A stretch of DNA of 64,000 nucleotides from Sedimentisphaerales bacterium. Lineage in GTDB: Bacteria > Planctomycetota > Phycisphaerae > Sedimentisphaerales > SM23-30. Location: NCBI GenBank assembly GCA_016934515.1, contig JAFGSR010000009.1, forward strand, positions 2,375 to 66,374, written 5' to 3'. The translations under genes were made by a program, and so were the position numbers. Under the pieces are notes generated by a model, which saw nothing but the letters and a program-made list of their open reading frames with translations, had not been told where the DNA came from and searched no databases. Positions 48,715-64,000 of the stretch are shown here, in pieces (the first letter of the stretch is position 1; the number at the start of each line of letters is the position of its first letter).

Positions 48715-49293
48715 TTATTTTACAGTTTGACCGGCAAGTAAGCCCTTGGCGAATTCCGCGCCCTTGTAAAGCGCCTTTTCATTTATCGGTATCGTTTTGT
48801 GATGCCGCTTGGCCAACACCTTTTCCAGGCATTTCACCGCTGTCTCCAACGGAATCACACCGCGCTTCTGCAGATAAGCTCCTATCGCCACCATGTTCGT
48901 CGATCTGGGCGAACCCAACTCAACCGCAATATCATCCGAAGGGATCGCCAGCACTTCCGCATCGACAGGTGGAATTACCGATCCAATCTTGCTGCTGTTA
49001 TATAACAACAATCCGCCCGGTTTCAAACGTGGGCTGAACCTTTCGCAGGAAGCTTTGTTCAGCACGATAACACTGTCAAAACTGGTAACCAGCGGCGAAG
49101 CAATCGGCTCATTCGAAATCACCACCATGCAGTTGGCCGTCCCCCCGCGAACCTCCGCTCCATAAGAAGGGAAATAAGTAACTTCCAGTCCATCAATCAT
49201 TGCCGCGTTCGCCAACAGCTTGCCCAGCATGATAATGCCCTGGCCCCCGAAACCAGCTATAATAATCTCTTCGTAATAATCTTGTTCTGTCAT
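48715..49293 (-). CDS. 2-oxoacid:ferredoxin oxidoreductase, gamma subunit
   Basis: IIIAGFGGQGI...G......A......V..FPSYGAEVRGG. ATGA overlap with the beta subunit. Confidence 0.88.
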   Translation of the reverse strand: MTEQDYYEEIIIAGFGGQGIIMLGKLLANAAMIDGLEVTYFPSYGAEVRGGTANCMVVISNEPIASPLVTSFDSVIVLNKASCERFSPRLKPGGLLLYNSSKIGSVIPPVDAEVLAIPSDDIAVELGSPRSTNMVAIGAYLQKRGVIPLETAVKCLEKVLAKRHHKTIPINEKALYKGAEFAKGLLAGQTVK

Positions 49294-50039: not shown

Positions 50040-50100
50040 AAATACCTCTCGCGACTCGCGGTTTTGAATTTCATATTTCGGTAATTGAAATTTTTCATCC

Positions 50101-50135
50101 TTCTAGCTTCAGGCTTCATCCTTCAGGCTTTCTTC
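50101..50135. repeat. TTCTAGCT...CTTCAGGCTTTCTTC element, copy B
   Basis: TTCTAGCTTCAGGCTTCAtcCTTCAGGCTTTCTTC. It overlaps the stop and last codons of the OFOR alpha-subunit gene. Confidence 0.65.
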
Positions 50136-51196: not shown

Positions 51197-51459
51197 GATT
51201 TTTCCTTAATCATTGCTTTAGGACGTGCTGCCCCGGACTCAACTTCCTGAACCTTATCCCGGAAAACTTCTATCGCAACATCCGGACACATAACTGCACA
51301 TGCTCCGCAGCCTATACAACTGTCTCCACAGCACTCAGCGGGAAAATACCCCATGGCATTGGAATTTTTAGATATTCGGACCGCCCCCTTAGGACATACC
51401 TCAACGCAAAGGCCGCAACCTTTGCATTTCTCGGCATCTATTAATATTTTACCTGCCAT
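51193..51459 (-). CDS. 2-oxoacid:ferredoxin oxidoreductase, delta subunit (2x[4Fe-4S] ferredoxin)
   Basis: CKGCGLCVEVCP and CIGCGACAVMCP motifs. First gene of the delta-alpha-beta-gamma operon. Confidence 0.88.
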   Translation of the reverse strand: MAGKILIDAEKCKGCGLCVEVCPKGAVRISKNSNAMGYFPAECCGDSCIGCGACAVMCPDVAIEVFRDKVQEVESGAARPKAMIKEKS

Positions 51460-51833: not shown

Positions 51834-52109
51834 ATGAGTAATGAACCGGATTATACCGTTGAAATTGGCGGACAGATAATTCAAGGGCCCGTGGGCTCCG
51901 ATGACCTCGGAAACGGCGATAATCCCGGTACTTCTTTCTATGGACGTGCTTATATCAGCGTTCTATTTGAATGCTGTAACGTTTATCAGCGAATTTACCG
52001 CAATACCTCCGCTACCGCTTATGAAGGTTTCTGCCCCAAATGTTTGCGAAAAGTGCGGGTGCGTATCGGCCCCGGCGGCACCGATGCCCGCTTCTTTACC
52101 GCCAAATAA
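51834..52109 (+). CDS. Small Cys-containing hypothetical protein (91 aa)
   Basis: ATG-initiated ORF in an AT-rich spacer. CC...CPKC arrangement suggests a zinc-ribbon-like fold. No family recognised. Confidence 0.45.
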   Translation: MSNEPDYTVEIGGQIIQGPVGSDDLGNGDNPGTSFYGRAYISVLFECCNVYQRIYRNTSATAYEGFCPKCLRKVRVRIGPGGTDARFFTAK

Positions 52110-52361
52110 TTGATGTATTGGTTGCAAGTCTTTACCTGATAGGGTTTTATCAATTTCGGGCAGGGAAGGGGAATTATCTTTACTCATTTATAGACTGATC
52201 CATGTAGCAAAATTTTCGTAAAAAAACAATTGGCGGGATTTCATGAACCGATCAACCATAAATTAGATCAAAACTAACCCACTTTAATGTCTTATTTAGC
52301 AATATATTACGCCAATCAATGTTTTCTTGGGGTAATTTAACAAAAAATTCCTGAGTTTTTA

Positions 52362-52390
52362 TTGACATTTGACGATATTAATCTTATATT
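52362..52390 (+). promoter_or_regulatory. Sigma70-like promoter upstream of rex
   Basis: TTGACA (52362-52367), a 17-nt spacer, then TATATT (52385-52390), about 55 nt upstream of the rex ATG. Confidence 0.55.
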
Positions 52391-52391
52391 A

Positions 52392-52410
52392 CTGTTAAAT
52401 AAATAACAAC
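52392..52410 (+). promoter_or_regulatory. Candidate Rex operator
   Basis: cTGTTAAATAAATAACAAc compared with the Rex consensus TTGTTAAnnnnTTAACAA. There are two symmetric mismatches. The site lies immediately downstream of the -10 box. Confidence 0.5.
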
Positions 52411-52443
52411 GTTAATATTATAACATATACAAACGCTGGCGAT

Positions 52444-53076
52444 ATGGAATCAATAAACATGGCTGACTTATCAAAAAAAACCGTTGAAAGATTATGTGTT
52501 TACCATCGGGAACTGCTGGAGTTGGAAAACGAAGGAACAGACCACATTTTTTCCCACCAGTTGGCCAAACGGGCCGGGGTATCACCGGTACAACTCAGAC
52601 ATGACATCATGGGTATCGGTTATTCCGGCAGCCCGGCACGGGGGTATGAAATCTCCGAAATGCTTAAAAGCATCGCCAAGCAACTGCTGTCAACTAAGCA
52701 GCAAAATGTTGCTATCGTGGGCATTGGAAATCTGGGCCGGGCAATAATGGCTTATTTTCACGGACGGCGCGAAAACATCAGGATAATTGCCGGCTTTGAT
52801 TCCGATTTGCAGAAAATCAATCGCACCATAAGTGGTTGTTATTGTTACTCCATGAACGACATCGAAAGAATATGTAAATATCACAAAATCAAGGCCGCAA
52901 TTATCGCCGTTCCCGAAAGAGAAGCACAAGATATTGCGGAAAAACTCTCTCAGGCGGGTATCCGGGGAATAATGAACTTTGCTCCGGTTAGGTTGGTGTT
53001 GCCGGACAGTATATATGTCGAAAACCTGGACATGGCTCTTACCCTGGAAAAGGTAGCTTATTTTGCCCGCCAGTAG
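52444..53076 (+). CDS. rex: Redox-sensing transcriptional repressor Rex
   Basis: Winged-helix N-terminus (RL..Y...L......G....S.QLA...GV...Q.R.D) and a Rossmann domain (VAIVGIGNLGRA). Confidence 0.9.
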   Translation: MESINMADLSKKTVERLCVYHRELLELENEGTDHIFSHQLAKRAGVSPVQLRHDIMGIGYSGSPARGYEISEMLKSIAKQLLSTKQQNVAIVGIGNLGRAIMAYFHGRRENIRIIAGFDSDLQKINRTISGCYCYSMNDIERICKYHKIKAAIIAVPEREAQDIAEKLSQAGIRGIMNFAPVRLVLPDSIYVENLDMALTLEKVAYFARQ

Positions 53077-53095
53077 TACCCCCGAAAGGATTAAA

Positions 53096-53608
53096 ATGTC
53101 GCATTCTGATGAAATAACTGCCGTCCTTAAAGAACATCCCCAAGCCCGGCGGGACTCTTTGATACCAATCTTGCAGCAGATTCAAGACCGCACCGGTTTC
53201 ATCTCCCCTCAAGCTGTACAGATGGTCTCGGATGAATTGTCCCTGCCGACCAGCAAAATTTACGGCGTGGCAACTTTTTACAATCAGTTTCGTTTTCAGC
53301 CCCTGGGAAAATTTCATGTTCAGGTTTGCCGCGGAACTGCCTGTCACGTTAAGGGCTCGGCCGCGGTTTTGGACATGTTGATCAGGGAGCTTAACATCAA
53401 GCCCGACGAAACCACTCGCGACGGCTTGTTCAGCCTGGAAATTGTCGCCTGCATCGGGGCTTGCGGCTTGGCTCCGGTAATCAGCGTAAACGGCGAATTT
53501 CACGGCGGTGTTACGCCGGACAATATCAAAAAAATCTTGGATTCTTATCGCGCTCAAGCTCAGAAAGATCAATCTCAAAACGATGCTCAGGAAGATAAAG
53601 CAAAATGA
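53096..53608 (+). CDS. hydC: [FeFe]-hydrogenase NuoE-like [2Fe-2S] subunit
   Basis: LIPILQ.IQ...G.I.......V...L.....K.YGVATFY..F...P.GK....VC.GTAC...G, and C.GACGLAP. Confidence 0.88.
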   Translation: MSHSDEITAVLKEHPQARRDSLIPILQQIQDRTGFISPQAVQMVSDELSLPTSKIYGVATFYNQFRFQPLGKFHVQVCRGTACHVKGSAAVLDMLIRELNIKPDETTRDGLFSLEIVACIGACGLAPVISVNGEFHGGVTPDNIKKILDSYRAQAQKDQSQNDAQEDKAK

Positions 53609-55590
53609 ATAAACCATCCAACAGCAATGTTTCCCCAACAAAAAACGCTCAGGACATCCCGGAAGTTATGGAATGCGTAATGGCGGGTTTGTCCTATCAG
53701 AACAATGAGCCGATTAGCCAGGTCCAGACCGAACTTCTGGAACGGCTGCGGCGTGAAAAACTTATCCGACCGGCTTTATTTGTCGGAACCGGCACCTGCG
53801 GTCTGGGGGCCGGTGCCGGTAAAACGCTGAAAAAAATAAGCGATTATCTCGAATCTAACACTATCGATGCCGATATCGTTGAGGTCGGCTGCATTGGTTT
53901 GTGCTCGGCAGAACCCATTGTGGATTTGCAGATCCCCGGCAAAACCCGGGTGTCGTTTAGTTCGGTTACCCAGGAAAAAGTTGAAGCTCTGCTCTCGGCG
54001 GTTTTCGCCGATGATATTCCAACGGATCAGGTTCTGGGCCAACATCGACAATTGGGCCTGGAAGCCTGGCAGGATGTTCCTTATCTCGATGAACATCCCT
54101 TTTTCGCCCCCCAGACCCGCTGGGTATTGGCCAACTGCGGCATTATCGATCCCGCCAGTATCGACGAATACATTGCCCGGGGCGGATACAAAAGCCTGGC
54201 CATGGCTCTGCAAAATATAACCGCGCCGGATTTGTGTGATATCGTCGAAAAAAGCGGCTTACGCGGCAGGGGCGGCGGCGGGTTTTTAACCGGAAAAAAA
54301 TGGCGTTTTGCCTCCCAGACACCCGGCGATCAAAAATATCTGATCTGTAACGCCGACGAGGGTGATCCGGGAGCGTTCATGGACCGGGCTGTCATCGAGG
54401 GTGACCCACATCGCCTGCTCGAAGGAATGGCTCTTGCAGCTTACGCAATCGGTGCCTCAAAAGCCTACGTTTACATCCGTGCCGAATATCCCTTGGCGAT
54501 TGCACGTTTGAAAACCGCCATCGCTCAGGCTCAGGAGTATGGTTTACTGGGCAGCAACATCCTGAGCAGTGGTTTCAACCTGAAAATCATCATCAAACAG
54601 GGAGCCGGTGCGTTTGTTTGCGGTGAAGAAACAGCCCTGATTAACAGCATCGAAGGAAAACGCGGAATGCCTCGGCCTCGGCCGCCGTTCCCGGCAATTG
54701 AAGGGCTTTTCGGCAAGCCCACGATTATCAATAACGTGGAAACCCTGGCGAATCTGCCCGGAATAGTAGTCAACGGCCACCAGTGGTTCAGCAACGTTGG
54801 CACCGAAAACAGCAAGGGCACCAAGGTTTTCGCTCTCTCGGGTAAGGTCTGTCGCACCGGATTAATCGAAGTGGCGATGGGAACCATGATTCGGCAGATT
54901 ATTTTCGATATCGGTGATGGCATCCCAAACGGCAAAGAGTTCAAAGCAGTGCAAATGGGCGGTCCCTCAGGCGGCTGCATTCCTGCTCAACATCTGGATA
55001 TCAAAGTTGATTACGAATCGCTCAAAACCGTCGGCGCAATGATGGGCTCCGGCGGCATGGTGGTTATGGACGAAAACACCTGCATGGTCGATTTGGCTAA
55101 ATTCTTTATGGATTTCATTCAACGCGAAAGCTGCGGCAAGTGCATCCCCTGCCGCGAGGGAACACGACGGATGCTGGAAATTCTACAGCGGATCACCCGG
55201 GCCCGGCGTAACGAAACCGGCTCCGAAGCTCTGGAACGCTTCCAGGGCGTAATGTACATGAATCGCCTGGCCGAAGTTATCAAAGACACCAGCTTGTGCG
55301 GACTAGGACAAACGGCACCAAATCCGGTGTTAAGTACCTTACGCTGGTTCAGATCCGAATACGAAGCGCACATTTACGAACGCCGCTGCCCGGCGGGGGC
55401 TTGTAAAGAATTGCTGCTTTATCGGATTGATGAAGAAAAGTGCAAGGGCTGCACACTCTGTGCCAAAAAATGTCCCACCGACGCAATCATGGGTTCGGCC
55501 CGCAGTCCGCATTATATCATCCCCGACAAATGCATCGGTTGCGGGAATTGTCTGGAAGTTTGCCGTTTTGACGCGGTAATTGCTGAATAA
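53605..55590 (+). CDS. hydB: [FeFe]-hydrogenase NuoF-like FMN/NAD(H)-binding subunit
   Basis: N-terminal thioredoxin-like [2Fe-2S] domain, GLRGRGGGGF.TG.KW, NADEGDPGAF.DR, ESCGKC.PCREG and a C-terminal 2x[4Fe-4S] domain. ATGA overlap with hydC. Confidence 0.92.
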   Translation: MNKPSNSNVSPTKNAQDIPEVMECVMAGLSYQNNEPISQVQTELLERLRREKLIRPALFVGTGTCGLGAGAGKTLKKISDYLESNTIDADIVEVGCIGLCSAEPIVDLQIPGKTRVSFSSVTQEKVEALLSAVFADDIPTDQVLGQHRQLGLEAWQDVPYLDEHPFFAPQTRWVLANCGIIDPASIDEYIARGGYKSLAMALQNITAPDLCDIVEKSGLRGRGGGGFLTGKKWRFASQTPGDQKYLICNADEGDPGAFMDRAVIEGDPHRLLEGMALAAYAIGASKAYVYIRAEYPLAIARLKTAIAQAQEYGLLGSNILSSGFNLKIIIKQGAGAFVCGEETALINSIEGKRGMPRPRPPFPAIEGLFGKPTIINNVETLANLPGIVVNGHQWFSNVGTENSKGTKVFALSGKVCRTGLIEVAMGTMIRQIIFDIGDGIPNGKEFKAVQMGGPSGGCIPAQHLDIKVDYESLKTVGAMMGSGGMVVMDENTCMVDLAKFFMDFIQRESCGKCIPCREGTRRMLEILQRITRARRNETGSEALERFQGVMYMNRLAEVIKDTSLCGLGQTAPNPVLSTLRWFRSEYEAHIYERRCPAGACKELLLYRIDEEKCKGCTLCAKKCPTDAIMGSARSPHYIIPDKCIGCGNCLEVCRFDAVIAE

Positions 55591-57339
55591 ATGAGGAAAT
55601 ATACCCAAGTGATTAAGATTGAAGTTAACAACCAAAGCATTGAAGCAAAAAAAGGCGAAACGATTTTGACGGCACTGAAACGGGCGGGTATTAAGGTACC
55701 CACGCTCTGCCACATGGAAAACCTGGCGCCGACCGGTGCCTGTCGAATGTGCGTTGTGCAGGTCGAAGGCCGACCCGGCTTGATCCCCAGTTGTGCCTAC
55801 CCGGTTGAAAACGGAATGAAAATCCAGACCCACAGCAATCGGGTCTTACGCGCCCGAAAAACCATCGTGGAATTGCTGCTCGCCGATCACCCCGACGACT
55901 GCTTGTACTGCGTCCGTAACGGCAACTGTGAATTACAGCGCCTGGCAGAAGAATTCCAGGTACAGCAACGGCGCTACACCGGAAAAAAGTGTGACTATAA
56001 AGTGGACATGTCGAGTCCGGCGATAGTACGCGACCCGGCTAAATGCATCTTGTGCGGGCGCTGCGTCCGAATGTGCGAGGAAGTCCAGGGCGTCTCCTGC
56101 ATTGATTTCGTCGGACGGGGAAGCAAAACAATTGTCGGCACCGCTTTTGACCAGGGCTTGAATGTTTCCAGCTGCGTTAACTGCGGACAGTGCATCAAAG
56201 TTTGCCCCACCGGTGCCTTGAGCGAAAAAAGCCAGGTTAAACAGGTGCTCGCCGCGCTGCGTGATCCGGAAAAAATCGTGGTCGTTCAGCACGCCCCGAG
56301 CGTCTCGGTTACGCTGGCCGAAGAATTTGGCATGAAGCCGGGGGTGGACATTTGCGGCATTATGGTTTCGGCCTTGCGCCGGATGGGTTTCGACAAGGTT
56401 TTCGACACCGCCTTTACCGCCGACCTGACCATCATGGAAGAAGCTTCCGAACTGGTACACCGGATTCAAACCGGCGGCAAGTTGCCCATGATGACCAGCT
56501 GCTCGCCAGGCTGGGTTAATTTCGTCGAAAAGTTCTACCCCGATTTGATAGATAACATTTCCTCCTGCAAAAGCCCTCAGCAGATGATGGGAGCGGTCAT
56601 CAAAAGTTATTTTGCCCAACGCGAAGGGATCGACCCAACCAACATCTACAGCGTCTCGATCATGCCCTGCACCGCCAAAAAATTCGAGGCCCAGCGACCG
56701 GAAATGAACAACAAAAATGTTTTTGATGTGGACGCCGTGCTGACCACGCGGGAACTGGCCCGGATGATTCGTTCGCACGGCCTGGATATCAACTCGTTGT
56801 CCTCCGATTTGGCCGATTCTCCTTTCGGCCAGAGAAGTTCTGCCGGAAAACTCTTTGGCGCAACCGGTGGAGTAATGGAAGCAGCTTTACGAACCGCTTA
56901 TCATCTGTTGACCGGCGAAGAATTGAAGGACTTAACCTTAAAGCCCTTACGCGGCTTGAAGGGTGTTAAACATATGCAGGTCAGCATCGCCGGTCTGGAT
57001 TTGAAAGTGGCCGTAGTCAGCGGCCTGGGTAACGCCCGTAAGTTGCTGGAAGAAATTCGCTCCGGCCGGGAAAACCTCCACTTTATCGAAGTGATGACCT
57101 GCCCGGGCGGTTGTATCGACGGCGGTGGGCAGCCCCTGGGAACCGATCTCCAGGCGGTTCGCAAACGGATGCAGGCGTTGTACAAAATCGACCGGGACGA
57201 CCATCTGCAGTGCTCCCATCATAACAAGGAGGTCCAGCGTCTCTACGAAGAATTTCTCGGCGAACCACTCAGCGAAAAAAGCCACCATTTACTGCACACC
57301 CATTATACGCAAAGAAAAGTCTCAGTTAACAGAAATTAA
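55591..57339 (+). CDS. hydA: [FeFe]-hydrogenase catalytic subunit (multi-cluster, bifurcating-type architecture)
   Basis: N-terminal [2Fe-2S] plus His-ligated and 2x[4Fe-4S] domains. H-cluster motifs L2 MPCTAKKFE and L3 EVMTCPGGCIDGGGQP. L1 is TSCSPGW (atypical). Confidence 0.92.
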   Translation: MRKYTQVIKIEVNNQSIEAKKGETILTALKRAGIKVPTLCHMENLAPTGACRMCVVQVEGRPGLIPSCAYPVENGMKIQTHSNRVLRARKTIVELLLADHPDDCLYCVRNGNCELQRLAEEFQVQQRRYTGKKCDYKVDMSSPAIVRDPAKCILCGRCVRMCEEVQGVSCIDFVGRGSKTIVGTAFDQGLNVSSCVNCGQCIKVCPTGALSEKSQVKQVLAALRDPEKIVVVQHAPSVSVTLAEEFGMKPGVDICGIMVSALRRMGFDKVFDTAFTADLTIMEEASELVHRIQTGGKLPMMTSCSPGWVNFVEKFYPDLIDNISSCKSPQQMMGAVIKSYFAQREGIDPTNIYSVSIMPCTAKKFEAQRPEMNNKNVFDVDAVLTTRELARMIRSHGLDINSLSSDLADSPFGQRSSAGKLFGATGGVMEAALRTAYHLLTGEELKDLTLKPLRGLKGVKHMQVSIAGLDLKVAVVSGLGNARKLLEEIRSGRENLHFIEVMTCPGGCIDGGGQPLGTDLQAVRKRMQALYKIDRDDHLQCSHHNKEVQRLYEEFLGEPLSEKSHHLLHTHYTQRKVSVNRN

Positions 57340-57357
57340 CTGTTTTAGAAAGTAACG

Positions 57358-59355
57358 ATGGTTATTCCACTGAATATATCATTTATCCAAACCGCTAAAG
57401 AGCGTTGTCGTGTCTGTTACACCTGCGTACGGGAATGCCCCGCTAAAGCCATCCGAATCGCAGACGGCCAGGCTGAGGTAATTCCCGAACGCTGCATCAG
57501 TTGTGGTAATTGCGTGCGGGTTTGCTCTCAGCAAGCCAAGCAGGTGGTCAGTACCATCGACCAGGTTGATAATTTGCTGGCAGGACCCGACCCGGTTGCA
57601 GCTTGTATCGCACCGACTTTCCCGGCGGATTTTCCTGATTACGATTATCGCTGCCTGGTCGGAATGATACGCCAGTTGGGTTTCAACTTGGTAAACGAGG
57701 TGGCTTTTGGCGCAGACCTCGTGGCAAAAGAATACAAAAAATTGTTCTCGGCTGAACCGAACGGAAAAAATTACATCTCCACTGCCTGCCCGGCAATCAT
57801 CGGATACGTGGAAAAATATCATCCCGACCTGGTCGATTCTTTAGTTCCAATTGTCTCACCGATGTTAGCTACCGCCCGGGCTCTGCACCTCCTGCACGGA
57901 AATCATTTGAAGGTGGTTTTCATCGGACCCTGCATTGCAAAAAAATGCGAAGCGGTAAGCGAAAACACTCTCGATGAAGTGGATGCGGTGCTGACTTTCG
58001 CAGAATTGCGACAAATGTTCGAACAAAAACACCTCGATCCGAAAAAAGTTACACCAGACGATTTCGACCCCCCACATGCCGGACTGGGTGCTTTGTTCCC
58101 CATCAGCCGCGGGTTGCTCCAGGCCGCCGACATTACCGAAGACCTGGTTGCCGGTGAAGTTGTCGCCACCGACGGCAAAACCAATTTCGTCGAAGCAATT
58201 CGCGAATTTGAAAGCGGGGCTCTGGATGCCCGTTTGCTGGAAGTCCTGGCTTGCAACGGCTGCATTATGGGAGCCGGCATGACCGACGATGCTCCCCTGT
58301 TCAGCCGACGCTCGAGGGTCAGTCGCTATGTCCGAAAACGCATGGAAAACTTCAACAAACAGCAATGGAAAAGTGACCTGAAAACTTTCAATAACCTGGA
58401 CTTGTCACGAATATTCACCAAAAACGACCAAAGAATTCCAGTGCCCTTCGAGGATGAAATCAACCTGATCATGGTCAGAATGGGCAAACACCAACCCGAG
58501 GACGAACTTAACTGCGGGGCTTGTGGATACGACACCTGCCGCGAACATGCCGTCGCAATTTTCAAAGGCCTGGCCGAAAGTGAAATGTGCCTGCCCAACA
58601 CTATCGAACAGTTACGCAGCATGATTAACCAACTCGCCAGTTCCAACGAACTGCTTGCCAATACCCAGGAAGCCCTCATGCAATCGGAAAAACTCGCCAG
58701 CATGGGACAACTCGCCGCGGGAATCGCCCACGAAGTCAACAACCCCCTCGGTGTGGTGCTCATGTACGCCCATATGCTCCTGGAACAGTTTGAGGAAAAA
58801 CCGGAATTAAGCGAAGATCTGCGGATGATTACCGAACAGGCGGACCGCTGCAAAAAAATCGTCTCCGGCCTGCTCCACTTCGCACGACAAAATAAAGTTC
58901 AGCTAAAGCCCACCGACATTTGCGACCTCGTCAACCGGATCATCAAGGTTAATCCGCCTCCCGATGGAATCGAAGTGCATCAGGATATCCAGATCGATGA
59001 CCCCGTAGTGAAAATCGATCCCGATCAGATTATTCAGGTAATTACCAATCTGGTGAAAAACGCCTTTTCCGCCATGGACAGCCGGGGAAATTTAACCCTG
59101 CGAATTACCGGTGACGACAACAACATCAAAATTTCGGTTATCGACACCGGTTCGGGAATCCCCAGGGAAAACATCCCGAAACTGTTTGAACCATTCTTCA
59201 CCACCAAAAAAATCGGCAAAGGCACCGGCCTGGGATTGGCCGTAACCTATGGAATTATTAAAATGCACCAGGGAAATATTACCGTCGAATCCAACGACGA
59301 TCCCACAACGGGACCGACCGGTTCAACTTTCACGGTACAACTGCCCCGAATATAA
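57358..59355 (+). CDS. Hydrogenase-like (HydS-type) sensory domain fused to a histidine kinase
   Basis: 2x[4Fe-4S] ferredoxin motifs. H-domain with STACP / GPCIAKKCE / [12 protein letters not shown] Cx2Cx4Cx16C motif. HisKA H-box (IAHEVNNPL) and HATPase_c (DTGSGIP...GKGTGLGL). Confidence 0.88.
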
Positions 59356-59421
59356 TGTTGAATAACCCGAACAAAATTGTCCGAAAGTGATGAAAATTTA
59401 ACTTCAGTAACCAGGCAAAAA

Positions 59422-59823
59422 ATGACTATGGAAAAAACAAAGACAACCGTTTTAATAGTGGACGATGATTTCGACTTCCGCAACCAAATGGAAATTCAAC
59501 TCAAAGCAGCCGGTTATCAGGTCGTTACCGCCCAAGGCCAGGCCGACGCCGAGAAAAAACTCAAAGACCTCTGCCCGGACATAGCGGTAATCGATCTCAT
59601 GATGGAAAACACCGACGGCGGCTTTGCCCTCTGCTACCACATCAAAAAACTTTATCCCTCGGTCCCCGTCATTATCGTTACCGCCGTAACCAGCGAAACC
59701 GGCTACGAATTCGACGCCTCTACCGCCGAAGAAAAATCATGGATCAAAGCCGACCGCATGCTTACCAAACCGGTTCGCTTTGAACAATTAGATGGCGAAA
59801 TCCAAAAACTCCTAAACAGGTAA
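59422..59823 (+). CDS. Stand-alone response-regulator receiver protein
   Basis: CheY-like: VLIVDDD, acceptor Asp in AVIDLMM, and LTKP. No output domain. I prefer the ATG at 59422 over 59377. Confidence 0.85.
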   Translation: MTMEKTKTTVLIVDDDFDFRNQMEIQLKAAGYQVVTAQGQADAEKKLKDLCPDIAVIDLMMENTDGGFALCYHIKKLYPSVPVIIVTAVTSETGYEFDASTAEEKSWIKADRMLTKPVRFEQLDGEIQKLLNR

Positions 59824-59828
59824 ATAAA

Positions 59829-61040
59829 ATGGAAACCTTACGTGTTCTTGTCGTCGATGATGAACCCGGAATGCTCAGCAGTATCCAAAGAGTGTTACGC
59901 AACACCCGTATTGATCTTGCCGACCTCGAAACCCAGGTCAACTTTGACGTTCAAACCTCCGACACCGGCGAAAAAGCCTTGGAAATCATCAGCAATTCAC
60001 CGCCGGACATCTTGCTGCTGGATCATCAGTTACCCGGCATGTCCGGCCTGGATGTGCTCGACAACATCGCCGACCAGAAGGAAAATATCCTGACCGTGAT
60101 GATCACCGCTTACGCTTCTCTGGAAACCGCAGTCGTCGCCATTAAACGCGGCGCTTATGATTTCCTGGCCAAGCCCTTCACCCCCGGCGAACTCAAAGCT
60201 ACCATTCGCAAAACCGCAAAAAGCCTCATTGTCACCCGGCACGCAAGAAAACTGGCCCGCGAAAAACGACAGGTCCGCTTTCAGTTCATCTCGGTACTGG
60301 CCCATGAGTTGAAATCTCCCATAGCCGCCCTCGAAGGCTACCTCAACATCATCAAGGACAAAACCGCCGGCGACGACCCTGCCGTTTACGAAAAAATGCT
60401 GGACCGCTGCTCAATACGTCTGGACGGCATGCGCAAGTTGATCTTCGATTTGCTCGATCTTACCCGCATCGAGTCCGGACAGAAAAAACGTGAACTCAAC
60501 ATTGTCGATCTCCGCGAAATCGCTCAACGTTCTATCGAATCTGTGCTGCCCCAGGCTGATTCTCGCAGCATCACCATCAACCTGCTTGCCGACGAAAAAC
60601 TAAACATGACCGCCGACCCCGGTGAAATTGAAATCATCTTAAACAACCTCATCTCTAACGCCGTTAAGTACAACCGCGACAACGGCCGCGTTAACATCGT
60701 CATGACCGCCCGCAACGGTAAAGTAAATATTTCCGTCTCCGATACCGGAATCGGCATGTCCCAGCAGGAAACCGACCGACTGTTCAACGATTTCGTACGC
60801 ATCAAAAACGCCAAAACCCGAAACATCCTGGGCAGCGGTCTCGGACTGTCCATTATGAAGAAACTCGTTAATCTTTATGAGGGCGAAATTTCCGTCCAAA
60901 GCACCCCGGACGCAGGAACCACCTTCACCGCAGTACTCAACCAACACATTCAACAGCCCCAGGAAAACGCAGTACTCACACAACACACTCAACAGCCCCA
61001 GGAAAACGATGAACACCCAACAAATCATCAAGTGGCTTAA
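59829..61040 (+). CDS. Hybrid receiver-histidine kinase (REC-HisKA-HATPase_c)
   Basis: REC (VLVVDDE...LLLDHQLPGMSG...AKPF), H-box (LAHELKSPI), N/G boxes (NLISNAVKYN, DTGIGM, GSGLGLS). The C-terminal tail is encoded by a 39-bp tandem duplication. Confidence 0.88.
   Translation: METLRVLVVDDEPGMLSSIQRVLRNTRIDLADLETQVNFDVQTSDTGEKALEIISNSPPDILLLDHQLPGMSGLDVLDNIADQKENILTVMITAYASLETAVVAIKRGAYDFLAKPFTPGELKATIRKTAKSLIVTRHARKLAREKRQVRFQFISVLAHELKSPIAALEGYLNIIKDKTAGDDPAVYEKMLDRCSIRLDGMRKLIFDLLDLTRIESGQKKRELNIVDLREIAQRSIESVLPQADSRSITINLLADEKLNMTADPGEIEIILNNLISNAVKYNRDNGRVNIVMTARNGKVNISVSDTGIGMSQQETDRLFNDFVRIKNAKTRNILGSGLGLSIMKKLVNLYEGEISVQSTPDAGTTFTAVLNQHIQQPQENAVLTQHTQQPQENDEHPTNHQVA
60930..61007 (+). 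repeat. 39-bp tandem duplication (2 copies)
   Basis: gcagtactcaaccaacacattcaacagccccaggaaaac / gcagtactcacacaacacactcaacagccccaggaaaac, matching at 36 of 39 positions by hand alignment. Confidence 0.85.
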
Positions 61041-62145
61041 AGAACAGGACTCCCACAAGCTCGATCAGCTTTGGCAGCAGGCCGACCGGTCCCGCTACGA
61101 ACACGTCGGCAACCAGGTGCACCTGCGCGGCCTCATCGAAATTTCCAACCATTGCTCACGACAGTGTCAATATTGCGGCATCCAGGCCGGCAACCGGTCC
61201 CTCCAACGCTACCGCATGACCATGGATGAAATTCTTACCTGCGCTCTTCAGGCCCAGGAGCTAGGCTACGGCACCGTCGTCCTCCAGGCCGGCGAAGATT
61301 TCGGCCTGACCACCGAATGGATAACCAAACTAATCTACAAAATAAAAACGAAAACCGCTTTGGCAATCACCCTTAGCCTGGGTGAAAGAAATGACTCCGA
61401 ACTTCGCAAATGGCAACAAGCCGGGGCCGACCGCTACCTTTTACGCTTCGAAACTTCCGACAGCGAACTTTTCCACCGCATTCACCCCGGACACGCAAAT
61501 AAAATATCCGATCGTTTCGCAATCCTCGAAACTCTTAACCAATTGGGATACGAAACCGGCAGCGGCGTAATGATCGGCATCCCCGGCCAAACTTACGATT
61601 CCCTGGCAAACGACCTCCTTCAGTTTCAAAAAATCAACCTCGACATGATCGGCGTCGGACCTTTCATCCCCCACCCAGCTAGCCCGCTCGGAAAACAGCA
61701 TGCTAACCTCAACGAAAAAAACAACCCTGATCCCAATCAGGTACCCAACACTGAGCTGATGACCTACAAAGTCGTCGCTCTGACTCGGCTCCTTTGCCCA
61801 CAAACCAACATCCCCAGCACCACCGCACTTGCCAGCCTCAACCAAAACAACGGACGCGAACTGGGGTTGCAACGCGGAGCTAACGTAGTAATGCCCAACC
61901 TGACTCCGCTTCAGTATCGAAAATTATACGAAATTTATCCCGCCAAAGCGTGCCTGCAGGAAAAACCCGACGATTTCCACAAACACTTGATTAACCGCAT
62001 CACCGAACTGGGCAGAACGATTGGACTGGGACGCGGAGATTCTCCCCATTTCAAAGCAAAAAAAAAGGACAATGTGACTCGCTTCACATTAAGGCGAAAA
62101 ACACCAACACCAAAAATTATGCAAAGGCAGGTACGCCGTGACTAA
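61009..62145 (+). CDS. hydE: [FeFe]-hydrogenase maturase HydE (radical SAM)
   Basis: CSRQCQYC radical-SAM motif about 60 aa from MNTQQII. Biotin-synthase-like fold length. Located next to hydG and hydF. The ATG at 61009 is preceded by AGGAAAA. Confidence 0.85.
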   Translation: MNTQQIIKWLKEQDSHKLDQLWQQADRSRYEHVGNQVHLRGLIEISNHCSRQCQYCGIQAGNRSLQRYRMTMDEILTCALQAQELGYGTVVLQAGEDFGLTTEWITKLIYKIKTKTALAITLSLGERNDSELRKWQQAGADRYLLRFETSDSELFHRIHPGHANKISDRFAILETLNQLGYETGSGVMIGIPGQTYDSLANDLLQFQKINLDMIGVGPFIPHPASPLGKQHANLNEKNNPDPNQVPNTELMTYKVVALTRLLCPQTNIPSTTALASLNQNNGRELGLQRGANVVMPNLTPLQYRKLYEIYPAKACLQEKPDDFHKHLINRITELGRTIGLGRGDSPHFKAKKKDNVTRFTLRRKTPTPKIMQRQVRRD

Positions 62146-63562
62146 ATTGGCAACCATGACATTAAGTGAAAATTGTAAAGATTTCATCGACGATGATTTT
62201 CTTAACAAATTGCTCACCGGCCCCCAACCCTCCCCCTCCCGCATACAGGAAATCATCAGCAAAAGCCTCGCCAAAGAAGCGCTAACCGTCGAAGAAACCG
62301 CCCAGTTGCTCCGCGCCGATGACCCCGAATCCGTCGAAAGCATCTTCGCCGCCGCTCGACAACTGAAAACCCAGGTTTATGGCAACCGAATCGTCCTCTT
62401 CGCCCCGCTTTACATCGGCAATGCCTGCGTTAACAACTGCCTCTATTGTGCATTCCGCTCCAGCAACCAACAAGCCGTTCGAAGAACCCTCACCACCACC
62501 GAAATCCGACAGCAGGTCGAAGCCCTCGAAAACGTCGGCCACAAACGCTTGATTCTCGTCTTCGGCGAACACCCAAAATACAACGCCGATTACATCGCCG
62601 ATTGCGTCCGCGAAGTTTATGACACCCGCGTCGGCCACGGCGAAATCCGACGCGTAAACATCAACGCCGCCCCCATGGACCACCAAGGCTACAAAAAAAT
62701 CAAAGCCGCCGGCATCGGCACCTACCAGATCTTCCAGGAAACCTACCATCACCAAACTTACGCCAAAGTCCATCCCTCCGCCACCCGCAAGGGAGATTAC
62801 CTTTATCGACTCGACGGACTGAGCCGGGCTTTCGAAGCCGGCTGCGATGACGTCGGAATCGGCGCACTCTTTGGACTTTACGATTGGCGCTTTGAAGTGC
62901 TCGGCCTGGTCAGCCACGCCTTGCATTTGCAGCAGCGCTACGGTGTCGGCCCCCACACCATCAGCTTCCCCCGGCTCCAACCGGCCAGCGGCGTTGACCT
63001 GGACGAAAAATTTCTGGTTAACGATCACAACTTCAAACGCCTCGTTGCCATACTACGCCTGGCCGTCCCCTACACCGGCTTGATTCTCACCGCCCGCGAA
63101 AATCCCGAACTACGCCGCGAAGTCATGGCTTTCGGCGTCTCACAAATCGACGCTGGCAGCCGCATCGAAATCGGCGGTTACACCGAAGCCGGTGACGCCC
63201 AGGTAATGGAACGCGAACAGTTCTGCCTGGGTGACATCCGTTCGCTCGATGAAGTAATCTGCGAATTACTCCAGGACGGCTACCTCCCCAGCTTCTGCAC
63301 CGCCTGCTATCGACTCGGACGCACCGGCGAACACTTCATGGAATTCGCCATCCCTGGTTTCATCAAACGCTATTGCACTCCCAACGCCCTCACCACCGTC
63401 ACCGAATACCTCACCGATTACGCCTCCCCAAAAACCCGCGCCGCCGGAAAAAAACTAATCCAAAAAGAACTGGACAACCTCGAAAACAACCCACAAAAAA
63501 ATGAACTACTCAAAAGACTACAACGAATTAAACAAACCAACGACCGCGACCTGTACTTCTAA
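62138..63562 (+). CDS. hydG: [FeFe]-hydrogenase maturase HydG (radical SAM tyrosine lyase)
   Basis: CVNNCLYCAF radical-SAM motif and a C-terminal Cys cluster (SFCTACYR). About 470 aa. Alternative ATG at 62156. Confidence 0.88.
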   Translation: MTKLATMTLSENCKDFIDDDFLNKLLTGPQPSPSRIQEIISKSLAKEALTVEETAQLLRADDPESVESIFAAARQLKTQVYGNRIVLFAPLYIGNACVNNCLYCAFRSSNQQAVRRTLTTTEIRQQVEALENVGHKRLILVFGEHPKYNADYIADCVREVYDTRVGHGEIRRVNINAAPMDHQGYKKIKAAGIGTYQIFQETYHHQTYAKVHPSATRKGDYLYRLDGLSRAFEAGCDDVGIGALFGLYDWRFEVLGLVSHALHLQQRYGVGPHTISFPRLQPASGVDLDEKFLVNDHNFKRLVAILRLAVPYTGLILTARENPELRREVMAFGVSQIDAGSRIEIGGYTEAGDAQVMEREQFCLGDIRSLDEVICELLQDGYLPSFCTACYRLGRTGEHFMEFAIPGFIKRYCTPNALTTVTEYLTDYASPKTRAAGKKLIQKELDNLENNPQKNELLKRLQRIKQTNDRDLYF

Positions 63563-63660: not shown

Positions 63661-64000
63661 ATGCAGAAGGTTCACAAAGGCCTAAGGTTACACATCGGCA
63701 TCTTCGGCAGACGCAACGTCGGCAAAAGTTCACTGCTCAACGCTCTTACTCGCCAGGCAGTTTCGATTGTCTCCGAAGTCGCCGGCACCACCACCGACCC
63801 CGTCGAAAAGCCCATGGAAATGCTCCCCGTCGGCCCGGTCCTCTTCATCGACACCGCCGGCATAGACGATGTCGGCGCTCTGGGCCGCGAAAGAGTCCAG
63901 AAATCCCGAAAGATCATCGAACGAACCGACGTCGGCCTGATCATAGCCACCGGAGACGACTGGAGCGATTTCGAAAAAGACCTGCTCACCCAGTTCCAAC
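63661..64000 (+). CDS. hydF: [FeFe]-hydrogenase maturation GTPase HydF, 3'-truncated at window edge
   Basis: My own translation from the ATG at 63661: MQKVHKGLRLHIGIFGRRNVGKSSLLNALT...VAGTTTDPV...FIDTAGIDD, showing the G1/G2/G3 GTPase motifs. This ORF is not in the track because it is open-ended. Confidence 0.8.
   Translation, partial: MQKVHKGLRLHIGIFGRRNVGKSSLLNALTRQAVSIVSEVAGTTTDPVEKPMEMLPVGPVLFIDTAGIDDVGALGRERVQKSRKIIERTDVGLIIATGDDWSDFEKDLLTQFQ

What the first reader, a model, noticed from the sequence alone, without database searches (positions are those of the whole stretch)
57358..61040. Hydrogenase-like sensor fused directly to a histidine kinase, feeding a phosphorelay with no output domain, between hydCBA and hydEGF
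ORF 57358-59355 starts with two ferredoxin-type Cys motifs and then an [FeFe]-hydrogenase H-domain.
- The cluster-ligand motifs L2 (GPCIAKKCE) and L3 ([11 protein letters not shown]) are retained.
- L1 reads STACP (57778-57792), so the proton-relay Cys of catalytic enzymes (TSCCP) is Ala.
- A Cx2Cx4Cx16C motif follows (58513-58590).
- After that come a coiled linker, an H-box and HATPase_c, with no PAS domain that I can see.

Loss of the relay Cys together with this accessory Cys motif are the reported hallmarks of putative sensory HydS/group C hydrogenases. Downstream are a stand-alone receiver and a REC-HisKA-HATPase hybrid. Neither has a DNA-binding or enzymatic output in this window.

The module sits inside the hydrogenase structural/maturase locus and downstream of rex. 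That suggests combined NADH/NAD+ and H2 control. To my knowledge, signal transduction from a hydrogenase-type sensor to a kinase has not been shown biochemically.
Basis: partly seen in the sequence, partly recalled or inferred. Interest (0 to 1): 0.72.

Follow-up and report, generated by a model that had tools for sequence, protein, structure and literature searches.

The report
Hydrogenase-type H2 sensor fused to kinase
This gene encodes a non-catalytic, hydrogenase-like iron-sulfur sensor joined directly to a histidine kinase, inside a hydrogenase operon. It belongs to an already catalogued but biochemically untested class, and could be a convenient system for testing whether such proteins really sense hydrogen.

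Summary
ORF 57358-59355 carries two ferredoxin-type clusters, an [FeFe]-hydrogenase H-domain, a Cx2Cx4Cx16C motif, HisKA and HATPase_c, with no PAS domain.

- **H-domain:** all four H-cluster Cys are present, and the proton-relay Cys is Ala.
- **Downstream genes:** a stand-alone receiver and a REC-HisKA-HATPase hybrid.
- **Operon:** a Rex-box promoter is followed by rex-hydCBA-hydS/HK-REC-REC/HK-hydEGF.
- **Source:** the contig is a Sedimentisphaerales MAG.

The architecture is not rare or new.
- At least 120 cluster representatives share it at 62-70% identity.
- About 30% of the 150 nearest 50%-identity representatives of the sensor module are kinase fusions.
- The whole cassette recurs in MAGs labelled as more than ten phyla.
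- HydDB (2016) lists a "histidine kinase-linked" putative sensory class.
- A 2024 Hydrogenedentota paper describes a group C3 "BfuT" subunit with a histidine-kinase domain next to bfuA.

- The distance from the last FeS Cys to the phospho-His keeps heptad register (47 of 50 are 5 mod 7).
- Family resemblance suggests a two-tier cascade: HydS-HK to hybrid REC, then hybrid kinase to the single REC.
- Rex operators are conserved upstream of the cassette.

Function is inferred, not shown. Verdict: a new member of a known kind, of moderate interest.

The parts
52362..52390 (+). sigma-70-like promoter TTGACA-17-TATATT upstream of rex
   Evidence: 11 of 12 hexamer matches, the best in the 51.7-64 kb scan. 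This is a consensus match only.
52392..52409 (+). Rex-operator-like palindrome CTGTTAAATAAATAACAA
   Evidence: the only match in the window with at most 2 mismatches to TTGTTAANNNNTTAACAA; 13 of 100 shuffles gave at least one match; comparable boxes lie upstream of the first cassette gene in 12 of 14 loci, against a background of 0.037 per kb at 2 mismatches or fewer.
52444..53076 (+). rex (redox-sensing repressor)
   Evidence: NF003995 scores 201 bits against a cut-off of 126. Put_DNA-bind_N plus CoA_binding.
53096..53608 (+). hydC (NuoE-like [2Fe-2S] subunit); the ORF is open from 53063
   Evidence: 2Fe-2S_thioredx, E = 9e-51; the ATG at 53096 has an AAAGGA ribosome-binding site.
53605..55590 (+). 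hydB (NuoF-like FMN/NADH subunit)
   Evidence: Complex1_51K, NADH_4Fe-4S and Fer4.
55591..57339 (+). hydA, the catalytic [FeFe]-hydrogenase subunit of the HydABC type
   Evidence: NF040763 'NADH-dependent [FeFe] hydrogenase, group A6' scores 865 bits against a cut-off of 765. Fe_hyd_lg_C (3e-98) plus Fe_hyd_SSU.
57358..59355 (+). hydS-HK: a sensory-type [FeFe]-hydrogenase module fused to a histidine kinase (665 aa)
57406..57525 (+). two ferredoxin-type [4Fe-4S] motifs (aa 17-56)
   Evidence: The eight Cys are nearly invariant in alignment A1.
57592..58275 (+). H-domain (aa 79-306), with L1 STACP at 57778-57792, L2 GPCIAKKCE at 57925-57951 and L3 [11 protein letters not shown] at 58240-58272
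   Evidence: C144, C192, C299 and C302 are invariant. Gly sits at the M353 position, Leu at M497 and Met at Q325. K358 and E361 are kept. The position equivalent to CpI C299 is never Cys.
58513..58590 (+). C-terminal accessory cluster motif Cx2Cx4Cx16C (PF04060)
   Evidence: All four Cys are conserved in every HK-fused relative aligned.
58591..58728 (+). helical linker (aa 412-457) from the last FeS Cys to the phospho-acceptor His458 (58729-58731)
   Evidence: helices 412-428 and 431-477; the Cys-to-His distance is 47, and 47 of 50 non-close direct fusions are 5 mod 7.
58702..59346 (+). HisKA (aa 449-511) plus HATPase_c (aa 554-663) kinase core, of the ZraS/AtoS/NtrB type
   Evidence: ZraS 9jfj, E = 2e-35. 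AtoS and ZraS are the top kinase models; residues of the H-, N-, G1-, F- and G2-box regions are invariant.
59422..59823 (+). stand-alone receiver (REC only); the ORF is open from TTG 59377
   Evidence: Response_reg, E = 1.5e-17; best PDB relatives are RR468, YycF and PhoP; the translation shows residues fitting the usual receiver positions (DD, D, T, K). These were read by eye, not aligned.
59829..61040 (+). REC-HisKA-HATPase hybrid kinase
   Evidence: the REC is closest to LuxO/NtrC receivers; the kinase core is closest to HK853/WalK/PhoR types.
61009..62145 (+). hydE (radical SAM maturase); the ORF is open from 60877
   Evidence: TIGR03956 scores 324 bits against a cut-off of 255, matching from residue 43; the ATG at 61009 has an AGGAAA ribosome-binding site.
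62138..63562 (+). hydG (radical SAM maturase)
   Evidence: TIGR03955 scores 499 bits against a cut-off of 312.
63661..64000 (+). 5' part of hydF (GTPase maturase); it runs off the window
   Evidence: MQKVHKGLRLHIGIFGRRNVGKSSLLNALT..., with a P-loop. No profile search was run on this fragment.

Best explanation
ORF 57358-59355 is a one-polypeptide hydrogen sensor kinase. Steps 1-4 describe its anatomy and are shown. Steps 5-7 are inferred.

1. Its N-terminal 430 residues are the input module of putative sensory (group C-type, HydS-like) [FeFe]-hydrogenases.
2. That module has two ferredoxin-type clusters.
3. It has an H-domain that keeps the H-cluster ligands and the residues contacting the cofactor's cyanide ligand. 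The H-domain has lost the catalytic proton-transfer pathway, so turnover should be slow.
4. It ends in a C-terminal Cx2Cx4Cx16C cluster domain.
5. H2 binding or oxidation at the H-cluster changes the state of the H-domain and FeS domain.
6. A continuous, register-preserving coiled-coil helix of 47 residues runs from the last FeS Cys to the phospho-acceptor His. It carries that change into the DHp bundle of a ZraS/NtrB-type kinase and alters its autokinase/phosphatase balance.
7. The phosphoryl group most likely goes to the NtrC/LuxO-like receiver of the downstream REC-HK hybrid. The hybrid's HK853/PhoR-like kinase then acts on the RR468-like single-domain receiver. That receiver, or an unlinked regulator, delivers the output by protein-protein contact.

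The module is co-transcribed with the bifurcating-type hydrogenase HydABC and the maturases from a Rex-controlled promoter. NADH/NAD+ (through Rex) and H2 (through HydS-HK) would therefore both bear on hydrogen metabolism.
For: **Anatomy**
- Domains and motifs are as described.
- The AF2 model has mean pLDDT 80, with most of the H-domain above 90. Residues 306-411 are helical apart from one isolated strand residue. A helix runs from 412 to 477 through His458.
- Foldseek matches the N-terminal ~430 aa to catalytic [FeFe]-hydrogenases (CbA5H, DdH, HydA of HydABC, CpI; E about 1e-20). The C-terminus matches the ZraS kinase.

**Purifying selection on cofactor sites**
- Across 39 HK-fused relatives (19 from the window and MAG loci, 20 close database representatives), C300, C355, C499, C503, K358, E361, P231, S323 and P324 (CpI numbering) are invariant. 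S232 is Ser or Thr in all.
- The C299 position is never Cys.
- The TIME segment that carries E279 in catalytic enzymes is deleted.
- S319 is mostly Ala or Val (a few Ser), and Q325 is Met.
- Gly at M353 matches the group C enzyme TmHydS rather than group D, where it is Ser/Thr (PMC8163306).

**A portable input module**
- Among the 150 nearest 50%-identity representatives of aa 1-430, 45-48 carry HisKA/HATPase, 14-15 carry a sigma-54 activator plus HTH, and at least 36 carry PAS.

**Linker**
- The distance from the last FeS Cys to the phospho-His is 33, 40, 47, 54 or 68 in 47 of 50 non-close direct fusions.

**Kinase competence**
- Residues of the H-, N-, G1-, F- and G2-box regions are invariant.

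**Partners**
- HydS-HK, REC and REC-HK are adjacent in about 15 MAG loci.
- The HydS-HK core is closest to ZraS/AtoS, and the hybrid's REC to LuxO/NtrC1.
- The hybrid's kinase is closest to HK853, and the single REC to RR468, which is co-crystallised with HK853 in the same PDB entries, for example 3dge and 4jas.

**Operon and Rex**
- Gaps between genes are short or overlapping, and terminator-like sites are not in excess.
- There is a promoter followed by a Rex box, and such boxes occur in 12 of 14 loci.
Against: - No experiment shows H-cluster insertion, H2 reactivity or H2-dependent phosphorylation for this protein or any [FeFe] sensor.
- For the group D enzyme TamHydS, the C-terminal cluster is not reduced under H2. 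Its redox state appears not to carry the signal (PMC13104023). The transmission step therefore cannot simply be 'the cluster gets reduced'.
- The partner assignment rests on family-level resemblance with modest E-value differences, not on specificity-residue analysis.
- No output domain or regulated target is identified anywhere in the window or conserved in related loci.
- Taxonomic labels of MAG bins may be partly wrong.
- The model coordinates could not be inspected, so the geometry of the four Cys was not checked.
Confidence: 0.6

Rival explanations
1. It is a redox or electron-flux sensor rather than an H2 sensor. The N-terminal ferredoxin-type clusters would exchange electrons with ferredoxin or with HydABC. 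The kinase would then report the reduction state of the cellular Fd/NADH pool. The H-cluster would act only as a slow vent or as a reference electrode against H2/H+.
For: - The two N-terminal [4Fe-4S] motifs are nearly invariant.
- In TamHydS the N-terminal clusters are the ones reduced under H2, and they form the main electron path (PMC13104023).
- The gene sits beside a ferredoxin-linked 2-oxoacid oxidoreductase operon and HydABC.
Against: - The complete set of H-cluster ligands and the CN-contacting Lys is invariant over more than ten labelled phyla. That is hard to explain if the diiron site were dispensable.
- Rex already supplies a redox input to the same operon.
- This reading is partly compatible with the main one, since a sensor could compare H2 with ferredoxin.
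Confidence: 0.2
2. The H-domain carries no diiron subcluster. Like Nar1/NARF-type proteins it would bind only [4Fe-4S] clusters. The protein would then sense O2, NO or Fe-S cluster integrity.
For: - No spectroscopic data exist for any HK-fused member.
- The 2024 Hydrogenedentota study could hardly find the P1-P3 motifs in its group C1 sequences (PMC11406978).
Against: - In this family L1, L2 and L3 are all present and invariant at the Cys positions, together with K358, E361, P231, S323 and P324; position 232 is Ser or Thr in all.
- The gene lies directly between hydA and hydEGF in the window. HydG or HydE follow in many related loci.
- The two characterised relatives with the same motif set, TmHydS and TamHydS, do assemble an H-cluster (PMC8163306).
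Confidence: 0.08
3. It is a subunit of the HydABC complex ('BfuT'). It would adjust the enzyme's activity or assembly directly. The kinase domain would act on the complex itself or be vestigial, rather than starting a signalling cascade.
For: - PMC11406978 treats the protein as a T subunit of sub-type V BfuABC clusters.
- It always lies adjacent to hydA.
- No transcription-factor output is encoded nearby.
Against: - The kinase catalytic boxes are invariant.
- Two receiver proteins are conserved next to it.
- The same sensor module is fused to sigma-54 transcription activators in other lineages. That points to signalling rather than to an enzyme subunit.
Confidence: 0.07

Closest known systems
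TmHydS (Thermotoga maritima), group C / M2f putative sensory [FeFe]-hydrogenase
   Same: - Two N-terminal [4Fe-4S] motifs.
- An H-domain with all four cluster Cys but without the proton-relay Cys.
- Gly at the M353 position.
- A C-terminal Cx2Cx4Cx16C cluster motif.
- The gene lies near a bifurcating HydABC.

Sources: PMC8163306.
   Different: - TmHydS ends in a PAS domain and has no kinase. Here there is no PAS, and a HisKA-HATPase core follows a 47-residue helix.
- M497 is Ser in TmHydS and Leu here.
- The sequence of TmHydS itself was not available for direct alignment.
'BfuT' of sub-type V BfuABC clusters: HydDB group C3 with a histidine-kinase domain, best HydDB hit WP_006928132.1. The same cluster layout is reported in Caldithrix abyssi; a bfuT also lies downstream of bfuA in Perlabentimonas, Tenuifilum and Williamwhitmania.
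   Same: - The gene order matches, with the sensor directly after hydA and the kinase domain fused to it (PMC11406978).
- A Hydrogenedentes MAG locus (L002) encodes a 60%-identical protein.
- Bacteroidota loci L019 and L020 also show the second, upstream sensor gene that the paper describes.
   Different: - Identity with those exact proteins could not be tested, because the accessions are not retrievable here.
- A term search of the paper's main text finds neither 'response regulator' nor 'Rex'.
- The paper treats the protein as an enzyme subunit.
HydDB [FeFe] group C1, 'histidine kinase-linked (putative)'
   Same: The idea is the same: a sensory [FeFe]-hydrogenase that regulates through histidine kinases (PMC5037454).
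   Different: - In the described C1 examples the kinase is a separate neighbouring gene (for example Vallitalea, PMC6163223), or only an HATPase_c domain is present (PMC11406978).
- The HydDB classifier could not be run here.
TamHydS (Thermoanaerobacter mathranii), group D / M2e
   Same: - No PAS domain.
- The same accessory cluster motifs.
[quoted passage not shown]
   Different: - Group D has Ser/Thr at the M353 position, whereas this protein has Gly.
- TamHydS is not fused to a kinase.
[NiFe] group 2b regulatory hydrogenases with their kinase (HoxBC-HoxJ-HoxA / HupUV-HupT-HupR)
   Same: The logic is the same. A slow, non-energy-conserving hydrogenase reports H2 to a histidine kinase that controls hydrogenase genes (PMC5037454 Table 1; details from my own knowledge of the Ralstonia and Rhodobacter systems).
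   Different: - The metal site and fold are unrelated.
- Sensor and kinase are separate proteins there.
- The output there is an NtrC-type DNA-binding regulator. No such output is encoded here.
Firmicute HydS-PP2C systems (Ruminococcus albus HydS, Thermoanaerobacterium HfsB); here represented by locus L022
   Same: The same sensor module (H-domain plus FeS motif) is encoded beside a hydrogenase (PMC8924675).
   Different: The output there is a PAS domain plus a neighbouring SpoIIE/PP2C phosphatase, not a fused histidine kinase.

Membership tests
Putative sensory [FeFe]-hydrogenase, group C (HydS-like) | H-domain with the four H-cluster cysteine ligands (CpI C300, C355, C499, C503) | tested here: met
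   C144, C192, C299 and C302 are present. They are invariant in 39 relatives and at least 90% conserved in 150 diverse representatives.
Putative sensory [FeFe]-hydrogenase, group C (HydS-like) | Loss of the proton-relay Cys (C299) and of the group A proton-transfer pathway | tested here: met
   The window has Ala. Relatives have T, S, D, A, P or N and never Cys. The segment carrying E279 is deleted, S319 is mostly Ala or Val (a few Ser), and the E282 and R286 positions are not conserved.
Putative sensory [FeFe]-hydrogenase, group C (HydS-like) | Two N-terminal [4Fe-4S] motifs and a C-terminal Cx2Cx4Cx16C motif | tested here: met
Putative sensory [FeFe]-hydrogenase, group C (HydS-like) | PAS domain after the C-terminal cluster (the M2f architecture) | tested here: not met
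   No PAS family appears in Pfam. The AF2 model has only helices between the FeS motif and the DHp. PAS is present in the comparator L022.
Putative sensory [FeFe]-hydrogenase, group C (HydS-like) | Active-site second sphere as in group C (M353 to Gly) rather than group D (M353 to Ser/Thr) | tested here: met
   GPC is invariant. The criterion comes from PMC8163306.
Putative sensory [FeFe]-hydrogenase, group C (HydS-like) | Placement in group C by the HydDB classifier or a reference phylogeny | not testable with these tools
PMC11406978 reports that HK-domain sensors next to bfuA classify as C3.
Putative sensory [FeFe]-hydrogenase, group C (HydS-like) | Binds an H-cluster and reacts slowly with H2 | not testable with these tools
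   This needs maturation followed by FTIR/EPR and activity assays.
Class I (HisKA) sensor histidine kinase | The H-box His in a DHp domain, plus the N, G1, F and G2 boxes in the catalytic domain | tested here: met
   HisKA (1e-14) and HATPase_c (1.5e-25) match. H458, N564/N568, D596-G598-G600, F610-P612-F613 and G620-G626 are invariant. ZraS 9jfj matches at E = 2e-35.
Multistep His-Asp-His-Asp phosphorelay | A histidine phosphotransfer (HPt or Spo0B-like) step between two receivers | tested here: not met
   No HPt family was found in any of the three signalling proteins. The second His is the H-box of a complete kinase, REC-HisKA-HATPase.
Group D (M2e, TamHydS-like) putative sensory hydrogenase | No PAS domain, and Ser/Thr at the M353 position | tested here: not met
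   PAS is absent, which fits. The M353 position is Gly in all 39 relatives, which does not fit.
Nar1/NARF-like proteins without a diiron site | Absence of the residues that hold the [2Fe] subcluster, and no link to HydEFG | tested here: not met
   K358, E361, P231, S323 and P324 are conserved, and position 232 is Ser or Thr. hydEGF follow in the same operon. No Nar1 reference sequence was aligned.

The most novel reading that the evidence does not exclude
The HydS-HK / REC / REC-HK triad is a self-contained signalling cassette with no transcription factor.
- Its end point would be the phosphorylated single-domain receiver. That receiver would act directly on a protein, such as HydABC, Rex or another enzyme, to give fast post-translational feedback from H2.
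- The cassette would be portable. It would move between phyla together with hydrogenase genes and exchange its sensor, HydS in this case and a Cache domain in Chloroflexota.
- The FeS domain would act as a mechanical lever on a register-sensitive coiled coil, not as a redox relay.
Probability: 0.15. Interest if true: 0.7.

Novelty: new member of a known kind. Interest (0 to 1): 0.45.

Why it matters
Whether group C/D [FeFe]-hydrogenases really sense H2, and how they pass the signal on, is still open.
- A 2022 review calls the sensory assignment putative (PMC8924675).
[quoted passage not shown] It states that finding the interaction partners is critical (PMC13104023).

In the characterised enzymes the output is a PAS domain or an unknown partner, so there is nothing simple to measure. 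A protein in which the same sensor module is wired by a short rigid helix to a standard histidine kinase has a built-in readout. Autophosphorylation, and transfer to two adjacent receivers, could be assayed with and without H2.

The class is very common in uncultured anaerobes labelled as many phyla, always beside a bifurcating-type hydrogenase. It may therefore be a widespread way of matching fermentation to ambient H2.

The gene itself is not a new kind of thing. Its value is as a tractable representative. The accompanying observations (heptad-locked linker, conserved output-less triad, Rex operator) are testable hypotheses.

Tried and rejected
- **Contig look-up:** an exact look-up of the encoding contig, meant to read beyond the window end, found nothing for the window protein or for P0001. 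HydF was instead read from the last 340 bases.
- **Pfam on all 150 representatives at once:** It was split into two alignments.
- **Cluster membership of ten representatives:** returned no cultured organism or HydDB accession. A direct link to WP_006928132.1 could not be made.
- **PDB by sequence and by fold:** no sensory HydS structure is held, only catalytic enzymes.
- **Literature searches:** searches for Sedimentisphaerales hydrogenases, and for sigma-54-fused sensors, gave nothing relevant. The Ignavibacterium genome paper was a false lead.
- **Sequencing error in hydA's TSCSPGW motif:** considered and rejected. It recurs in ten related loci and in PDB 7q4v.
- **Nearby DNA-binding response regulator:** considered and rejected. 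None was found among the ORFs of 150 aa or more that were scanned across the window. None was seen by inspection of ORFs downstream of the cassette in five related loci, which were listed but not profile-searched.
- **Not attempted:**
  - Specificity-residue or covariation analysis of kinase-receiver pairs, because there were too few paired loci.

Full report
**1.

The ORF 57358-59355 (+) encodes 665 residues.
- Two CxxCxxCxxxC motifs start at aa 17 and aa 46.
- STACP is aa 141-145 (57778-57792).
- GPCIAKKCE starts at aa 190.
- [11 protein letters not shown] starts at aa 295.
- [26 protein letters not shown] is aa 386-411 (58513-58590).

Pfam gives these domains, with no PAS family.
- A Fer4 dicluster, aa 13-60.
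- Fe_hyd_lg_C, aa 79-306, E = 6e-47.
- PF04060 'FeS', aa 384-413.
- HisKA, aa 449-511.
- HATPase_c, aa 554-663.

The next two genes are a receiver-only protein and a REC-HisKA-HATPase hybrid.

Upstream lie Rex, a NuoE-like HydC, a NuoF-like HydB, and a HydA. The HydA passes NCBI's 'NADH-dependent [FeFe] hydrogenase, group A6' model. Downstream lie HydE and HydG, both above their cut-offs. The first 113 codons of a HydF-like GTPase follow.

Likely true starts are hydC 53096, REC 59422 and hydE 61009, each preceded by a ribosome-binding-site-like sequence.

**2. Source and abundance.**

An identical protein is on record as 'MAG: 4Fe-4S dicluster domain-containing protein [Sedimentisphaerales bacterium]' on a 66,955-bp contig.

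The listed 120 best cluster representatives all have the same Pfam architecture. Those aligned are 62-70% identical to the window protein. Most come from Phycisphaerae or Planctomycetota metagenome bins.

A scan of one genome per species found full-length relatives at 47-61% identity. They come from MAGs labelled as Phycisphaerae, Hydrogenedentes, Lentisphaeraceae, Sumerlaeota, Verrucomicrobiota, Marinamargulisbacteria, Bacteroidota, Acidobacteriota, Spirochaetota, Gemmatimonadetes and Neomarinimicrobiota.

In these loci the order (Rex)-HydC-HydB-HydA-HydS/HK-REC-REC/HK-(HydG/HydE) is largely kept. Bin labels may be imperfect, but the spread is wide.

**3. What the sensor module is.**

I aligned 39 HK-fused relatives, 19 from the window and MAG loci and 20 close database representatives, with catalytic HydAs.

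*Retained positions.*
- The four cluster ligands are invariant.
- So are CpI positions P231, S323, P324, K358 and E361, and position 232 is Ser or Thr in all. These include residues that hold the diiron subcluster.

*Lost or changed positions.*
- The relay position C299 is T, S, D, A, P or N and never Cys.
- The four-residue segment carrying E279 in catalytic enzymes is deleted.
- S319 is mostly Ala or Val, with a few Ser.
- The E282 and R286 positions are not conserved.
- Q325 is Met, M353 is always Gly and M497 is always Leu.

Land et al. report M353 to Gly in the group C enzyme TmHydS. They report a conserved Ser/Thr at that position in group D (PMC8163306). On that criterion this family is group C-like.

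The AF2 model has mean pLDDT 80, and most of the H-domain is above 90. Its first ~430 residues superpose on catalytic [FeFe]-hydrogenases (E about 1e-20). Its C-terminus superposes on the ZraS kinase. The PDB holds no sensory HydS structure.

Between aa 306 and 411 the model has helices apart from one isolated strand residue. The absence of PAS is therefore supported by both profile search and predicted fold.

**4. The module is a portable input domain.**

A full HMMER search with aa 1-430 against 1.84 billion representatives gave 1018 hits at E <= 1e-30. Among the best 150:
- 45-48 carry HisKA/HATPase.
- 14-15 carry a sigma-54 activator AAA+ domain plus HTH_8.
- At least 36 carry PAS.

The canonical Firmicute layout is seen in locus L022: HydS with PAS, then a SpoIIE/PP2C phosphatase, then a second hydrogenase.

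The same Fer4-H-domain-FeS unit thus sits at the N-terminal input position of three standard signalling outputs. In my view this is the strongest comparative argument that it is a sensor.

**5. How the signal could reach the kinase.**

In the window the last FeS cysteine (C411) and the phospho-acceptor His458 are 47 residues apart. AF2 predicts helix from 412 to 477, with low confidence, as expected for a monomer model of a dimeric coiled coil.

I measured the same distance in 50 direct fusions that are not close relatives of the window protein.
- It is 33, 40, 47, 54 or 68 in 47 of the 50. All of these are 5 mod 7.
- Eight of the 120 close relatives have 40 rather than 47.
- Length variants that keep heptad register indicate a continuous coiled coil whose phase matters.
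- Insertion of a PAS domain gives distances near 159.

The FeS domain therefore seems rigidly coupled to the DHp bundle.

[quoted passage not shown] A mechanical rather than redox role for this domain fits both observations. This step is inference.

**6. The downstream proteins.**

The translations of both receivers show residues that fit the usual receiver positions: the acidic pair, the phospho-Asp, Thr and Lys. I read these by eye and did not align them.

No HPt domain is present, so this is not a classical phosphorelay.

The two kinases belong to different HisKA subfamilies.
- The HydS-HK core is closest to ZraS (2e-35), and to AtoS and NtrB models.
- The hybrid's kinase is closest to HK853 (1.9e-28), and to PhoR and WalK models.

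The receivers cross-match.
- The hybrid's REC is closest to LuxO and NtrC1 (2e-16 to 8e-14).
- The single REC is closest to RR468, which is co-crystallised with HK853, and to YycF and PhoP (1e-11 to 3e-10). NtrC scores only 2e-7.

This suggests HydS-HK to hybrid REC, then hybrid kinase to single REC. I hold this with moderate confidence only. A branched scheme, or a phosphate sink, is not excluded.

No DNA-binding response regulator was found among the ORFs of 150 aa or more that I scanned across the window. None was seen by inspection of ORFs downstream of the cassette in five related loci, which were listed but not profile-searched.

In Chloroflexota, a REC, a Cache-HAMP kinase and a REC-HK hybrid stand together. 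The kinase core is 45-48% identical to this one.
- [NiFe] hydrogenase genes are adjacent in two of these loci and nearby in a third.
- NuoEF-like genes are adjacent in another.

The triad may therefore exist with other sensors.

**7. Transcription.**

A near-consensus promoter (TTGACA-17-TATATT, 52362-52390) is followed at once by CTGTTAAATAAATAACAA (52392-52409).
- This is the only Rex-box-like site in the window at two mismatches or fewer.
- One in eight shuffles gives such a site by chance, so alone it is weak evidence.

Comparable palindromes lie within 400 bases upstream of the first cassette gene in 12 of 14 loci. Ten of those have two mismatches or fewer. The background is 0.037 per kb.

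Genes from rex to hydF are tightly spaced or overlapping, and terminator-like sites are not in excess. Rex control of the whole operon is therefore well supported. It agrees with what is generally known of Rex regulons (my own knowledge).

**8. Comparison with what is known.**

- HydDB (2016) defines [FeFe] group C1 'histidine kinase-linked (putative)', C2 'chemotactic' and C3 'phosphatase-linked' (PMC5037454).
- The 2024 Hydrogenedentota study describes group C3 'BfuT' proteins with a histidine-kinase domain directly downstream of bfuA in sub-type V clusters.
  - The best HydDB hit is WP_006928132.1.
  - The same layout occurs in Caldithrix abyssi.
  - Three Bacteroidota genera have a bfuT downstream of bfuA and also a second one upstream of bfuC.
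- That matches the window, the Hydrogenedentes locus L002, and the Bacteroidota loci L019 and L020, which also carry a second sensor gene.
- A term search of that paper's main text finds neither 'response regulator' nor 'Rex'.
- Reviews and primary papers still call the sensory role putative and the partners unknown (PMC8924675; PMC13104023).
- For [NiFe] group 2b, sensor-to-kinase signalling is accepted (PMC5037454 Table 1).

**9. Verdict.**

The finding is real and correctly read, but it is a member of an abundant, already catalogued class.

Its worth lies in being a tractable test case for [FeFe] H2 sensing. This analysis also adds three testable points: the heptad-locked linker, the conserved output-less three-protein set with a proposed order, and the conserved Rex operator.

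Function remains inferred throughout.

Noticed in passing
window 56494-56508 (hydA), also 56557-56580: The catalytic HydA has TSCSPGW where the canonical motif is TSCCPGW. By alignment the relay Cys (CpI C299) is present, but the cluster ligand C300 is Ser. A nearby SSCKSPQ has Cys where CpI has Ala321. The same variant occurs in the HydA of ten related loci and in PDB 7q4v chain A ('Iron hydrogenase HydA1'), so it is not a sequencing error. Which residue ligates the [4Fe-4S]H cluster in this subgroup was not resolved.
   Followed up: partly
not in the window; proteins P0159, P0164, P0168, P0179, P0187, P0191, P0193, P0196, P0200, P0204, P0206, P0209, P0225, P0254: The HydS sensor module (Fer4, H-domain, Cx2Cx4Cx16C) is fused directly to a sigma-54 enhancer-binding AAA+ domain plus HTH_8, with or without an intervening PAS domain. 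These would be one-component hydrogen-responsive transcription activators. A search of the held literature for this combination found nothing.
   Followed up: partly
L025 5473-11932; L026 5543-11921; L023 4063-7839; L030 6560-11946: In Chloroflexota MAGs a REC, an sCache-HAMP histidine kinase and a REC-HK hybrid stand together. The kinase core is 45-48% identical to the window's. [NiFe] hydrogenase genes are adjacent in L025 and L026 and nearby in L023. NuoEF-like genes are adjacent in L030. The three-protein signalling set may be a hydrogenase-associated cassette with exchangeable sensors.
   Followed up: partly
L019 4034-5635 (-) and L020 4020-5621 (-): Bacteroidota loci carry a second, shorter HydS-like gene (37% identity, no kinase match) upstream of hydB on the opposite strand, in addition to the HK-fused one after hydA. 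This matches the 'two bfuT' arrangement reported for Perlabentimonas, Tenuifilum and Williamwhitmania in PMC11406978.
   Followed up: no
window 1-64000, switch near 16000-18000; 52000-58000: GC skew is unusually strong: up to +0.39 on the left, and -0.2 to -0.44 from 20 to 50 kb, in 2-kb windows. It changes sign near 16-18 kb without a change of gene strand, as at a replication terminus. The rex-hydCBA stretch has skew near zero, unlike both flanks. That could reflect recent horizontal acquisition.
   Followed up: no
window 48715-51459 (-): A four-subunit 2-oxoacid:ferredoxin oxidoreductase operon (Fer4 delta, POR_N alpha, TPP beta, POR gamma) is transcribed divergently from the rex-hyd promoter region. 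A pyruvate phosphate dikinase lies further upstream at 41438-44182 (-).
   Followed up: no
window 60877-61040: The C-terminus of the REC-HK hybrid ends in a short tandem peptide repeat (QHIQQPQENAVLTQHTQQPQEN). It overlaps the long upstream extension of the hydE reading frame. The HydE profile match begins only at residue 43, so the 60877 start is probably spurious.
   Followed up: partly
window 59329-59356: A promoter-like site (TTCACG-16-TATAAT, 10 of 12) lies at the very end of hydS-HK, just upstream of the receiver gene. It is a consensus match only, and could be an internal promoter for the receivers and maturases.
   Followed up: no
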